Shown one piece after another: positions 15,447 through 16,261 of a DNA stretch of 24,924 bases. Location: UHGV virus genome UHGV-0876952. One strand, given 5' to 3'. The notes beneath the pieces were generated by a model. The model was not told the DNA's origin. It was given only the letters and a program-made list of their open reading frames with translations, and ran no database searches. This stretch comes from a virus. Each line of letters opens with the position of its first letter. Position 1 is the stretch's first letter. The position numbers and the translations under genes were made by a program.

Positions 15447-15737
15447 TTATTCGGTTGTGACTTTTTTGATCAAGGCCACTCTACGACTAGATGTTCTTGT
15501 AATGGTGGCAGTGAATCGTTTCGCTTGGATAGTAATGGTTTCGTTCTCCTTAAGTTGCCCGTAGCGAGTTTCCACCAGGGTGCCAAGACGCCACAGACCA
15601 TCATCGATACGTTTATGACTAGCAAATTTAATCAGCAACAGTTTTACGACTAACTGACCTACGTAAAAGGCGAATGCGACTCCGGCCGCTAATAAATAGG
15701 TGGCCAACCACCATTCCCAAGAAGTTAAATTGCTCAT
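15447..15737 (-). CDS. small membrane protein (N-terminal TM helix, basic C-terminus)
   Basis: 96-aa ORF with RBS AAGGTGA before ATG 15737; hydrophobic WEWWLATYLLAAGVAFAFYVGQLVV segment. Confidence 0.55.
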   Translation of the reverse strand: MSNLTSWEWWLATYLLAAGVAFAFYVGQLVVKLLLIKFASHKRIDDGLWRLGTLVETRYGQLKENETITIQAKRFTATITRTSSRRVALIKKVTTE

Positions 15738-15867
15738 TTTTTCACCTTTGTTTCATGAACTACCCGATACACACGCTTTCCGATGCACAGTGTTTTGGTT
15801 TTAAGTTCCTGCTTAATTAAATCACGACAGATGCCGAAGCCGATAAGGAAGCCACCCATAAAAGCTA

Positions 15868-15887
15868 ATGAGATGTATGGAATCATT
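15868..15887. repeat. copy of the 20-bp element (ATGAGATGTATGGAATCATT), identical 20/20 to the copy inside dnaE
   Basis: Read directly; intergenic, about 130 bp upstream of the 96-aa membrane protein gene. Confidence 0.6.
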
Positions 15888-16098
15888 TTAACACTCCTGA
15901 TTCTACTAATTGCTGTAGCAATACTTTCCCTTTATCAGTTAACTGGTAGTTGGCCGAACACCACGTTTCAGAAACGTTTGCAACCAACCCTAAACGCTCT
16001 AACTTAGCTCGCGTTTTAGGCTTCCAGTACTCAGGGAACTCCGGCCACTTACTGATTTCATGAAGCGTTTCCTTCTCCCGTTTACTTAATACGATCAT
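15883..16098 (-). CDS. hypothetical small protein
   Basis: 71-aa ORF with strong RBS AAGGAGA before ATG 16098; charged, helical; no assignable motif. Confidence 0.5.
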   Translation of the reverse strand: MIVLSKREKETLHEISKWPEFPEYWKPKTRAKLERLGLVANVSETWCSANYQLTDKGKVLLQQLVESGVLK

Positions 16099-16261
16099 CC
16101 TTAATCTCCTTCAGGGTGTTGGTTATTTCTACAATGCGATAAATACGACCGCGTCTTTCTATAACACCGCTTTTAATGTAGTCATTGATGCAACTGGACA
16201 TCACCACAATACCTATGAAAAAACCAACTGCTAAAAATGCAATCATCCAGCCGAGCATCAT
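16082..16261 (-). CDS. small membrane peptide (59 aa; not in the supplied ORF track)
   Basis: Hand-translated: MMLGWMIAFLAVGFFIGIVVMSSCINDYIKSGVIERRGRIYRIVEITNTLKEIKDDRIK. Start ATG overlaps the ligase stop (ATGA); GGAG 9 nt upstream; single predicted TM helix. Confidence 0.4.
   Translation of the reverse strand: MMLGWMIAFLAVGFFIGIVVMSSCINDYIKSGVIERRGRIYRIVEITNTLKEIKDDRIK

What the first reader, a model, noticed from the sequence alone, without database searches (positions are those of the whole stretch)
15447..16261. Cluster of three very small genes, two encoding single-TM peptides, translationally coupled to DNA ligase
A 59-aa membrane peptide that is missing from the ORF track because it is under 60 aa, a 71-aa soluble protein and a 96-aa membrane protein follow the ligase gene with overlapping start and stop codons and good ribosome-binding sites. 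Small membrane proteins in phage early regions are often host-takeover, superinfection-exclusion or holin/antiholin-like factors.
Basis: partly seen in the sequence, partly recalled or inferred. Interest (0 to 1): 0.4.

Follow-up and report, generated by a model that had tools for sequence, protein, structure and literature searches.

The report
Four small genes behind phage-plasmid ligase
Behind the DNA ligase gene of an SSU5-type phage-plasmid sit four (not three) tiny, conserved, translationally coupled genes, three coding for single-pass membrane peptides and one for a miniature winged-helix protein; they are real genes, switched off in the plasmid state, and their function is untested.

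Summary
The window is an E. coli SSU5-like phage-plasmid, 98-99% identical to phage Cyrano/CMS-2020a.

All four evolve under purifying selection (dN/dS 0.07-0.17). All four belong to PHROG families of unknown function found only in SSU5-like elements.

New points:
- p59 and p50 are paralogues, with a GxxxG transmembrane (TM) helix and a basic RxYRhh tail.
- p50 and p96 always co-occur, and they are the only two present in a distant clade.
- p71 is a minimal winged helix-turn-helix (wHTH) protein.
- p59 is gained or lost exactly between two 16-nt repeats.

Published RNA-seq of Cyrano shows the cluster silent in lysogeny, and Cyrano's lysis cassette lies elsewhere. This argues against exclusion and holin roles.

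Best guess, at low confidence: a lytic-phase inner-membrane complex tied to replication.

Side lead: directly downstream (about 15042-15412, minus strand) lies an unannotated, covarying structured RNA with a tmRNA-like tag template (ANEEVYLAVA*) and no detectable tRNA-like domain. It is more interesting than the finding itself.

The parts
16258..17580 (-). ATP-dependent DNA ligase (440 aa). It is the upstream gene to which the cluster is translationally coupled, and the last identifiable replication gene of the helicase-primase-ligase operon.
   Evidence: Pfam DNA_ligase_A_M E 5.8e-13 and phrog_114 E 8e-126. Its TGA stop overlaps the p59 ATG. The helicase and primase upstream were identified.
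16082..16261 (-). p59: a 59-aa single-pass membrane peptide, predicted Nout-Cin. It has a TM helix at about residues 3-23 with a GxxxG motif and a cytoplasmic tail RGRIYRIVEIT...KDD. It is a paralogue of p50 and the most often missing member of the cluster.
   Evidence: phrog_4381 E 1e-39. KD19 maximum 2.55; 0 K/R on the N side against 9 on the C side. hhalign against p50: probability 87%, E 3.8e-6, 47 columns. Gap-free over the 49 shared columns in the joint MAFFT alignment. dN/dS 0.17. Found in 532 PLSDB plasmids against 743 with an SSU5-type ligase.
15883..16098 (-). p71: a 71-aa soluble minimal winged helix-turn-helix protein, with a basic recognition helix PKTRAKLE and a wing NYQLTxKG.
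   Evidence: AlphaFold2 pLDDT 80, topology H6-17, H27-35, E39-41, E51-53, H55-67. The top Foldseek PDB hits are dominated by MarR/PadR/HxlR-type wHTH proteins, TMq 0.65-0.77, probability 0.97-1.0. Weak matches to HTH_45 and to the C-terminal part of the Csa3 model. phrog_4054 E 2e-45. dN/dS 0.07.
It has a GxxxG TM helix and a very basic cytoplasmic tail GKRVYRVVHET. It always occurs together with p96.
   Evidence: phrog_6302 E 1e-36. ATGA overlaps with p71 and with p96, and SD AGGAG. KD19 maximum 1.84; 10 K/R and 3 D/E on the C side. dN/dS 0.17. Annotated as SSU5_047 and CYRAN_38. Never discordant with p96 in 81 loci.
15447..15737 (-). p96: a 96-aa single-pass membrane protein, predicted Nout-Cin. 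It has a 9-residue ecto-tail LTSxDWW, a TM helix with a GxxxAxxxG motif, a juxtamembrane helix FASHKRIDDxLW, a beta-hairpin and a basic disordered tail. Databases call it 'C-type natriuretic protein', which is a misnomer.
   Evidence: phrog_4507 E 3e-57. AlphaFold2 pLDDT 64: helix 6-59, strands 67-71 and 76-80. Invariant A23, G27, Q28, K32, D46, W49. dN/dS 0.11. An exhaustive HMMER search of 1.84 billion representatives gave 18 hits at E<=1e-3; 17 are same-family proteins or fragments, and one (P0253, 808 aa, E 3.6e-5) is a repeat protein I take to be spurious.
16257..16272 (-). Direct repeat 1, GGAGATAAAGAATGAT: the SD and start codon of p59, overlapping the ligase stop.
   Evidence: An E. 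coli plasmid that lacks p59 (L003, NZ_AP027904) is deleted exactly between this repeat and repeat 2, which fuses the ligase stop to the p71 start.
16094..16109 (-). Direct repeat 2, GGAGATTAAGGATGAT: the SD and start codon of p71, lying inside the 3' end of p59. It is 14/16 identical to repeat 1.

Best explanation
SHOWN. The ligase gene of this SSU5-like phage-plasmid is followed by four translationally coupled genes, p59, p71, p50 and p96. They form the tail of the helicase-primase-ligase operon. They are real, selected protein genes found only in SSU5-like elements of Enterobacterales.

Three of them are bitopic inner-membrane peptides with almost no periplasmic part. Each has a small-xxx-small TM packing motif and a conserved basic cytoplasmic tail that ends in beta-strand motifs. 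p59 is a diverged duplicate of p50. p50 and p96 are an inseparable pair and are the ancestral core. p59 and the mini winged-helix protein p71 are an add-on, present in the SSU5, E. coli and Klebsiella clades and absent from the one distant clade examined. In the near-identical phage Cyrano the cluster is transcriptionally silent in the plasmid (lysogenic) state.

INFERRED, low confidence. The genes are made together with the ligase during lytic replication. p50 and p96 (with or without p59) assemble through their TM helices into a small inner-membrane complex. The basic cytoplasmic tails of that complex, helped where present by the DNA-binding-type p71, recruit or organise replicating or repairing phage DNA, or a replication protein, at the membrane. 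The module is accessory rather than essential.

My confidence in the descriptive part is about 0.9. My confidence in the membrane-tethering mechanism is about 0.3. The confidence value given for this explanation (0.35) refers to the statement as a whole, mechanism included.
For: Gene structure, coupling and SD sites.

Identity of the element and the operon (ParA, DnaB-like helicase, primase, ligase). No terminator-like site lies between the ligase and the small genes or between the small genes (the one minus-strand site in the cluster is a 5-bp stem inside the p96 coding sequence), and no sigma70-like promoter was found in 14000-19200.

Purifying selection: dN/dS 0.07-0.17.

Restricted families.

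Topology and motifs: 0 K/R on the N side against 9-13 on the C side. GxxxG is present in 56/58 p59 and 23/26 p50 cluster representatives. The tail motif is R-G-R-x-Y-R-h-h in p59 and G-K-R-x-Y-R-V-V in p50. p96 has invariant A23 and G27 and near-invariant G19.

Paralogy of p59 and p50.

The p50-p96 pair: it is never discordant in 81 loci (58 with both, 23 with neither). It is the only small-gene pair after the ligase in the distant clade L013/L014. It is retained in Klebsiella KP1078 although ligase, p59 and most of p71 are deleted there.

p71 fold.

Silence in lysogeny: PMC9928086 S1 Table gives CYRAN_36-39 at log2(5+FPKM) 2.32-3.0, with a floor of 2.32.
Against: - There is no experimental evidence for translation, membrane insertion, complex formation or DNA binding.
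- The RNA-seq covers lysogens only, not induced cells, so lytic expression is inferred from operon position.
- Each gene is missing from some natural plasmids: p59 is found in 532, p71 in 637, p50 in 682 and p96 in 653, against 743 plasmids with an SSU5-type ligase. None is therefore strictly required for plasmid life.
- p71 is absent from the distant clade, so DNA binding by p71 cannot be central to the core function.
- The p96 model is of low confidence (pLDDT 64).
- No homologue of known function was found by sequence or fold for the membrane peptides.
- The co-occurrence counts are not phylogenetically independent.
Confidence: 0.35

Rival explanations
1. Host-takeover effectors. During lytic growth the small membrane peptides bind and inhibit, or re-purpose, a host inner-membrane protein such as a divisome component, a transporter or a protease, as some other phage early small TM proteins do. 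p71 would act as a small regulator.
For: The genes are silent in the lysogen and sit in an early or replication-type operon. GxxxG-type TM motifs suit helix-helix binding to a host TM partner. The genes are accessory and variably present, as takeover genes usually are. From my own knowledge and not tested here: SPO1 gp56 is a small TM protein that blocks cell division.
Against: No similarity to any known takeover protein was found. The strongest conservation lies in the cytoplasmic tails rather than only in the TM helix. The strict p50-p96 pairing suggests that they act on each other.
Confidence: 0.25
2. A superinfection-exclusion or defence module that protects the lysogen or the infected cell against other phages at the membrane.
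For: The products are membrane proteins. The cluster borders the variable cargo island, which in relatives carries AbiH, the ars operon or the F1 capsule genes. All four genes are retained intact in the degraded Y. pestis pMT1.
Against: Expression is at the detection floor in the Cyrano lysogen, while the repressor and the toxin-antitoxin genes are clearly on. There is no PADLOC hit for the three membrane peptides. Only 2-9 residues face the periplasm, where injection blocks usually act.
Confidence: 0.08
3. Holin/antiholin-like lysis-timing factors.
For: The products are small, with one TM helix and a charged C-terminus. In this window p59 starts with Met-Met.
Against: Cyrano has a canonical holin-endolysin-Rz-Rz1 cassette elsewhere (CYRAN_22-25). 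No lysis family was hit among the neighbouring genes scanned. The double Met is not conserved: SSU5 and pMT1 have a single Met. The genes are coupled to replication genes rather than to late genes.
Confidence: 0.03
4. Hok/TisB-like small membrane toxins that serve plasmid addiction.
For: These are peptides of about 50 aa with one TM helix, carried on a low-copy plasmid that also holds several toxin-antitoxin systems.
Against: There is no Hok_Gef or other toxin family match. The strong SD sites and ATGA coupling to the upstream genes are the opposite of the translation-silenced, antisense-controlled type I toxin layout. No conserved antisense ORF or feature was seen. The predicted topology is Nout-Cin with a cytoplasmic tail.
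Confidence: 0.03

Closest known systems
SSU5_045-048 of Salmonella phage SSU5, equal to PHROGs 4381, 4054, 6302 and 4507 (CYRAN_37-39 in phage Cyrano; orthologues on pHCM2-like plasmids and Y. pestis pMT1)
   Same: Orthologues in the same order behind the ligase, 58-84% identical at the protein level, with full-length profile matches.
   Different: Nothing of substance. All are annotated as hypothetical, and p96 carries the unsupported name 'C-type natriuretic protein'. p59 is not annotated in Cyrano or in many plasmid records.
Phage phi29 p16.7 and p1, membrane-associated organisers of phage DNA replication (recalled from my own knowledge, not tested here)
   Same: Small early proteins encoded alongside replication genes, with an N-terminal membrane anchor and a cytoplasmic part. 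This is the functional analogy behind the best explanation.
   Different: No sequence or fold similarity was found. p16.7 carries its own DNA-binding domain, whereas here a wHTH exists only as the separate, optional p71. The host is Gram-negative and the virus family is different.
MarR/PadR/HxlR-type winged-helix transcription regulators
   Same: The p71 model superposes on their wHTH core (TMq 0.65-0.77, probability 0.97-1.0). It has a basic recognition helix and a beta wing.
   Different: p71 is half their size and lacks the N- and C-terminal dimerisation helices. No Pfam or NCBIfam model reaches its threshold (HTH_45 E 0.18). DNA binding is untested.
Small phage membrane proteins of exclusion or takeover (T4 Imm/Sp, P22 SieA, SPO1 gp56) and Hok-type toxins (recalled from my own knowledge)
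   Same: Size and a single TM helix.
   Different: No homology. The cluster is not expressed in the lysogen. Periplasmic exposure is minimal. Translation is coupled rather than antisense-controlled.

Membership tests
PHROG families 4381, 4054, 6302 and 4507 (SSU5_045-048 orthologues) | Full-length profile match | tested here: met
   E 1e-39, 2e-45, 1e-36 and 3e-57, covering profile positions 1-59/59, 1-71/71, 1-50/50 and 1-96/99.
PHROG families 4381, 4054, 6302 and 4507 (SSU5_045-048 orthologues) | Conserved position directly downstream of the SSU5-type ligase | tested here: met
   Same order in SSU5, Cyrano, and Citrobacter, Salmonella and Klebsiella plasmids. 39 of 81 loci hold all five genes.
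Holin/antiholin | Encoded in a lysis cassette next to endolysin and spanin genes | tested here: not met
   No lysis gene lies nearby in the window. In Cyrano the cassette is CYRAN_22-25 at 26.7-28.2 kb, whereas the cluster is at 37.4-38.2 kb.
Holin/antiholin | At least one TM helix and a charged C-terminus | tested here: met
   This feature is not specific to holins.
Superinfection exclusion proteins | Expressed from the resident prophage or plasmid | tested here: not met
   CYRAN_37-39 are at or near the RNA-seq floor in LF82 lysogens (PMC9928086 S1 Table).
Superinfection exclusion proteins | Similarity to a described exclusion or defence protein | tested here: not met
   PADLOC gives no hit for p59, p50 or p96. 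Pfam and NCBIfam give none.
Type I toxin (Hok/Gef-like) | Family profile match, and translation blocked or controlled by an antisense RNA | tested here: not met
   No Hok_Gef match. Strong SD sites and ATGA coupling. Antisense transcription itself was not tested.
MarR/PadR-type wHTH regulators (p71) | Winged helix-turn-helix fold | tested here: met
   AlphaFold2 pLDDT 80 and Foldseek hits.
MarR/PadR-type wHTH regulators (p71) | Family profile above threshold, and dimerisation helices flanking the wHTH | tested here: not met
   HTH_45 scores 12.3 bits against a cut-off of 25.5. p71 is only 71 aa, with one helix after the wing.
MarR/PadR-type wHTH regulators (p71) | Sequence-specific DNA binding | not testable with these tools
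   Needs EMSA or ChIP.
phi29 p16.7-like membrane replication organisers | N-terminal membrane anchor, encoded with replication genes | tested here: met
phi29 p16.7-like membrane replication organisers | Homology, or a DNA-binding domain of its own in the membrane protein | tested here: not met
   No sequence or fold match. The tails are short basic beta-hairpins.

The most novel reading that the evidence does not exclude
The obligate p50-p96 pair, with its paralogue p59 and the mini-wHTH p71, is a previously unrecognised inner-membrane platform that physically couples phage-plasmid lytic DNA replication or ligation to the membrane. That would be a Gram-negative, multi-subunit counterpart of phi29 p16.7. 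Alternatively, it is a new class of GxxxG peptide inhibitors of a host membrane machine.
Probability: 0.2. Interest if true: 0.5.

Novelty: new member of a known kind. Interest (0 to 1): 0.3.

Why it matters
SSU5-like phage-plasmids are common in clinical Enterobacterales. In the collections searched here, 743 PLSDB plasmids carry an SSU5-type ligase, and 245 of 5426 complete E. coli genomes carry the neighbouring RNA element. They include Y. pestis pMT1 and S. Typhi pHCM2-type plasmids, and they can carry resistance genes.

Knowing which of their many 'hypothetical' genes are real, how those genes group (the p50-p96 pair, the p59/p71 add-on) and when they are expressed narrows the experiments needed to understand lytic replication of these elements.

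The small genes themselves are ordinary for a phage genome. The greater value of this locus is probably the neighbouring, unannotated tmRNA-like RNA.

Tried and rejected
- Pfam, NCBIfam, PADLOC and PDB sequence searches gave nothing significant for the membrane peptides.
- A Foldseek search with the low-confidence p96 model gave noise.
- The word-indexed searches of 5.8 billion proteins with the p71, p96 and p59+p50 profiles, and the exhaustive HMMER search of 1.84 billion representatives with the p96 profile, returned only the same families. One exception, P0253, is an 808-aa repeat protein at E 3.6e-5 that I take to be spurious.
- p96 is not related to p50 or p59: hhalign probability 3% and 0.4%. 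The Buttiauxella p50::p96 chimera is therefore a deletion product, not evidence of homology.
- Coding on the plus strand over the cluster was rejected, because those ORFs are not conserved.
- The database name 'C-type natriuretic protein' for p96 has no model or paper behind it.
- The search for related loci with a mixed p96 alignment failed for lack of a conserved stretch, and P0250 was not found in viral contigs.
- For the neighbouring RNA, I could not find a tRNA-like domain with ARAGORN at default or lowered thresholds or with Rfam. Low-threshold ARAGORN 'permuted tmRNA' calls also appeared on the wrong strand, so I do not trust them.
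Full report
WHAT THE WINDOW IS. The region 15300-17700 is 98-99% identical to Escherichia phages CMS-2020a and Cyrano, and 78.6% identical to Salmonella phage SSU5. The window therefore comes from an SSU5-like phage-plasmid of E. coli. PHROG scans of the larger ORFs show a ParA-like protein, a DnaB-like helicase, a primase, two unknowns, the ligase, a DNA polymerase, an SSB and an exonuclease. They also show an island with an integrase, a thioredoxin-like gene and cobaltochelatase-like genes. Four tRNA genes (Asn, Tyr, Thr, Ser) lie at 14119-14669 on the minus strand.

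CHECK OF THE OBSERVATION. On the minus strand the ligase (16258-17580) is followed by p59 (16082-16261), p71 (15883-16098), p50 (15734-15886) and p96 (15447-15737).
- The junctions are ATGA (ligase/p59), a 17-nt overlap (p59/p71), ATGA (p71/p50) and ATGA (p50/p96).
- Each start is preceded by GGAGA, GGAGA, AGGAG or AAGGTG.
The fourth, p50, was missed, and it is what actually links p71 to p96.
- Hydropathy gives one TM helix each in p59, p50 and p96 and none in p71.
- There are no K/R residues on the N side of the TM helix and 9-13 on the C side, which predicts Nout-Cin with only 2-9 periplasmic residues.

ARE THEY GENES?
- All four match PHROG families end to end.
- They are annotated in SSU5 as SSU5_045-048. 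Three of them are annotated in Cyrano as CYRAN_37-39; p59 is unannotated there.
- I fetched orthologous loci from Y. pestis pMT1 and from Citrobacter, Salmonella, Klebsiella and Buttiauxella plasmids and extracted the ORFs.
- Protein identity to the window ranges from 58% to 84%.
- Nei-Gojobori dN/dS is 0.17 for p59, 0.07 for p71, 0.17 for p50 and 0.11 for p96, against 0.04 for the ligase, with dS near or beyond saturation.
- Plus-strand ORFs over the same DNA differ in place and length between lineages.
- These are selected protein-coding genes.

WHAT THE PROTEINS LOOK LIKE.
- p59 and p50 are paralogues. hhalign gives probability 87%, E 3.8e-6 over 47 columns. In a joint MAFFT alignment they are gap-free over the 49 shared columns, with invariant G13, G17, R39, Y41, R42, T47 and K51; K30 is near-invariant.
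- The G13xxxG17 motif lies in the TM helix. It is present in 56/58 p59 and 23/26 p50 cluster representatives. The tail motif is RGRxYR(I/V)(I/V)xxT in p59 and GKRxYRVVHET in p50.
- p96 is unrelated to both. Its AlphaFold2 model (pLDDT 64) is one long helix (residues 6-59, covering the TM and juxtamembrane parts), a beta-hairpin (67-80) and a disordered basic tail. G19, A23 and G27 form a small-xxx-small face.
- p71 folds with pLDDT 80 into helix-helix-strand-strand-helix. Its top PDB fold matches are dominated by MarR, PadR, HxlR or similar winged-helix DNA-binding proteins, with TMq 0.65-0.77 and probability 0.97-1.0, although E-values are only about 0.02-0.15. In the viral library the matches are small uncharacterised phage wHTH-like proteins.
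- No Pfam, NCBIfam, PADLOC or PDB sequence match is significant for any of the four.

DISTRIBUTION AND MODULARITY.
- Profile searches of 5.8 billion proteins return only SSU5-like elements of Enterobacterales.
- An exhaustive HMMER search of 1.84 billion representatives with the p96 profile gave 18 hits at E<=1e-3. Three of them are about 30%-identical members. One (P0253, an 808-aa repeat protein, E 3.6e-5) I take to be spurious.
- Those distant members come from a separate clade (L013, L014-16). There the ligase is followed directly by one p50-like peptide (56 aa) and the p96-like gene, with overlapping stop and start codons and no p59 or p71.
- In PLSDB, tblastn finds an SSU5-type ligase (at least 60% identity) in 743 plasmids, p59 in 532, p71 in 637, p50 in 682 and p96 in 653.
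- In 81 loci with enough flank, the commonest patterns (ligase, p59, p71, p50, p96) are +++++ (39), ---++ (9) and +-+++ (7). p50 and p96 are never discordant: 58 loci have both and 23 have neither. These counts are not phylogenetically independent.
- Natural rearrangements show how the region changes:
  - An E. coli plasmid lost p59 exactly between two 16-nt imperfect repeats, GGAGATAAAGAATGAT and GGAGATTAAGGATGAT. These are the SD-plus-start regions of p59 and p71.
  - Klebsiella NH25 lost the TM helix of p59.
  - K. grimontii and NH25 replaced the end of p50 and all of p96 with a 138-aa ORF.
  - Klebsiella KP1078 fused the ligase N-terminus to the p71 C-terminus but kept p50 and p96.
  - Buttiauxella carries a p50::p96 chimera.
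  - Y. pestis pMT1 keeps all four genes next to caf1R, although IS100 truncated its ligase.
- I read this as a core pair, p50-p96, plus an add-on, p59-p71, in which p59 arose by duplication of p50.

WHEN ARE THEY EXPRESSED? The paper on E. coli LF82 prophages (PMC9928086) gives RNA-seq values for Cyrano genes as log2(5+FPKM), so the floor is 2.32.
- In overnight LB cultures the ligase is at 2.45/2.66, p71 at 2.97/2.32, p50 at 2.32/2.32 and p96 at 2.83/3.0.
- In the same cultures the repressor is at 6.75/6.39 and the toxin-antitoxin genes at 8-9.
- The cluster is therefore off in the plasmid state, like the structural genes.
- The same table lists a canonical holin, endolysin, Rz and Rz1 at 26.7-28.2 kb, about 10 kb from the cluster.
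- Within the window I found no terminator-like site between the ligase and the small genes or between the small genes (the one minus-strand site in the cluster is a 5-bp stem inside the p96 coding sequence), and no sigma70-like promoter in 14000-19200 (0 found against 8.3 +/- 2.9 in shuffles). This is consistent with one long operon.

INTERPRETATION.
- Shown: there are four real genes, coupled to the ligase. Three are Nout-Cin bitopic peptides with TM packing motifs and conserved basic cytoplasmic tails. One is a mini-wHTH. p50-p96 is an obligate pair. The cluster is silent in lysogeny, and each gene is individually dispensable in nature.
- Inferred: the genes are expressed with the replication genes in the lytic cycle. 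They assemble into a small membrane complex. That complex acts on the cytoplasmic side, most plausibly by bringing replicating or repairing DNA, or a replication protein, to the membrane, with p71 as an optional DNA-binding partner. I put this at about 0.3.
- A host-takeover role, binding a host membrane machine, is nearly as likely at 0.25.
- Exclusion (0.08), holin/antiholin (0.03) and Hok-like toxin (0.03) readings each fail at least one defining feature that I could test.

COMPARISON AND NOVELTY. The genes are members of already catalogued but uncharacterised families. What is new here is the organisation: the fourth gene, the paralogy, the core pair, the wHTH fold, the cassette-like indel and the expression state. 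This is an ordinary finding for a phage genome, and I score it 0.3.

SIDE OBSERVATION THAT DESERVES ITS OWN FOLLOW-UP. The about 400 nt just downstream of p96 (15042-15446, minus strand) are more conserved at the nucleotide level than the small genes. Identity is 77-81% across SSU5, pMT1, Salmonella and Klebsiella elements, and 72-74% in the distant clade.
- The alignment contains a tmRNA-like tag template, GCA AAC GAA GAA GUC UAU CUG GCA GUA GCC UAA, which reads ANEEVYLAVA* (15322-15354). The E. coli ssrA tag, recalled from my own knowledge, is ANDENYALAA.
- The variants ANEDTYLAVA, ANDNQYLAVA and ANDTQYLAVA occur in other lineages.
- The stop codon sits in a hairpin. A hairpin follows whose loop pairs with downstream bases as a pseudoknot. 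After that come a hypervariable hairpin, a 24-bp helix and two 3' hairpins.
- Across the 84 pairs, 97.4% of cells are paired, against 33-41% when the partners are slid. Seventeen pairs show changes on both sides, against 0-5 in the slid controls. The covariation score is 0.257, against at most 0.09.
- Rfam gives only sub-threshold local hits to tmRNA families, and these fall over the tag region.
- ARAGORN calls no tmRNA, and I could not identify a tRNA-like domain.
- A 30-nt pattern from the tag region also matches about 46-48 kb IMG/VR contigs whose closest database relatives (about 85-93% identity) are Klebsiella phages such as KP591P1 and BUCT541. In several of these contigs it lies behind a strong promoter-like site and upstream of tRNA genes.
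- In RefSeq it occurs in 245 of 5426 complete E. coli genomes, always on plasmids. No RNA gene is annotated at any of the 12 sampled places; 10 carry no feature at all and 2 a 'hypothetical protein'.
- Two full-text searches of the paper library (tmRNA with 'phage-plasmid'; tmRNA with SSU5, pHCM2 or pMT1) brought up no paper whose title or abstract concerns a tmRNA of these elements.
- Whether it works in trans-translation, perhaps with a separate acceptor piece, or does something else is open.

Noticed in passing
window 15042-15412, minus strand (tag template 15322-15354; promoter-like TTTACT...TGTGTATAAGAT 15401-15429): An unannotated structured RNA of about 370 nt lies directly downstream of p96 and carries a tmRNA-like tag template (ANEEVYLAVA*). 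The stop codon sits in a hairpin, followed by a covarying pseudoknot, a hypervariable hairpin and a 24-bp helix. 97.4% of cells are paired against 33-41% in slid controls, and 17 pairs have compensatory changes. Only sub-threshold Rfam tmRNA hits were found. ARAGORN and Rfam find no tRNA-like domain. It is more conserved than the neighbouring protein genes. A 30-nt pattern from its tag region also matches about 46-48 kb IMG/VR contigs related (about 85-93% identity) to Klebsiella phages such as KP591P1 and BUCT541, upstream of tRNA genes. It occurs in 245 of 5426 complete E. coli genomes, always on plasmids, and no RNA gene is annotated at any of the 12 sampled places. It is potentially a new tmRNA-derived RNA class.
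   Followed up: partly
window 7881-9989, minus strand: The cobaltochelatase CobT-like gene ('porphyrin biosynthesis') is split into three consecutive ORFs (8952-9989, 8506-8955, 7881-8528). They match positions 2-347, 397-518 and 518-729 of one PHROG profile. It is a single CDS in SSU5 and Cyrano. It is probably a pseudogene or a sequencing frameshift.
   Followed up: no
window 22636-23708, plus strand: Two adjacent ORFs (200 and 135 aa) match the N- and C-terminal parts of one PHROG (phrog_22329, positions 1-167 and 218-352). This suggests another split gene.
   Followed up: no
window 14000-19200: No sigma70-like promoter match on either strand in 5.2 kb, against 8.3 +/- 2.9 in shuffled sequence. 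Promoter-like sites appear to be depleted across the replication operon.
   Followed up: no
window 14119-14669, minus strand: The tRNA cluster is Asn-Tyr-Thr-Ser here. Cyrano has Asn-Thr-Ser and SSU5 has only Asn, so tRNA content varies between close relatives. The tRNA-Ser also scores just below the Rfam tRNA-Sec threshold (44.8 against 47 bits).
   Followed up: no
L004 (Y. pestis pMT1, NZ_CP045155) 1533-3456: The degraded phage-plasmid pMT1 keeps all four small genes intact, right next to caf1R of the F1 capsule operon. Its ligase is N-terminally truncated beside an IS100.
   Followed up: partly
window 15447-15737 and many GenBank/RefSeq plasmid records: p96 orthologues are widely named 'C-type natriuretic protein'. 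No Pfam or NCBIfam model supports the name, and no paper in the library pairs it with the word 'plasmid'. It looks like a propagated mis-annotation.
   Followed up: yes
L013 (DALYYK010000001.1, 'Candidatus Fimivivens sp.' MAG, 50 kb contig): A contig binned as a Clostridia MAG carries an SSU5-like primase-ligase-p50-p96 module. It is probably a mis-binned enterobacterial phage-plasmid.
   Followed up: no
L020-L122 (about 46-48 kb IMG/VR contigs related to Klebsiella phages), downstream of the tmRNA-like module: These loci hold arrays of variable RNA-like inserts, each enclosed by a long conserved inverted repeat (CACAACAGGTAAGAGCA ... TGCTCTTTCCGTTGTG) and followed by tRNA genes. They look like processing stems that release several small RNAs.
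   Followed up: no
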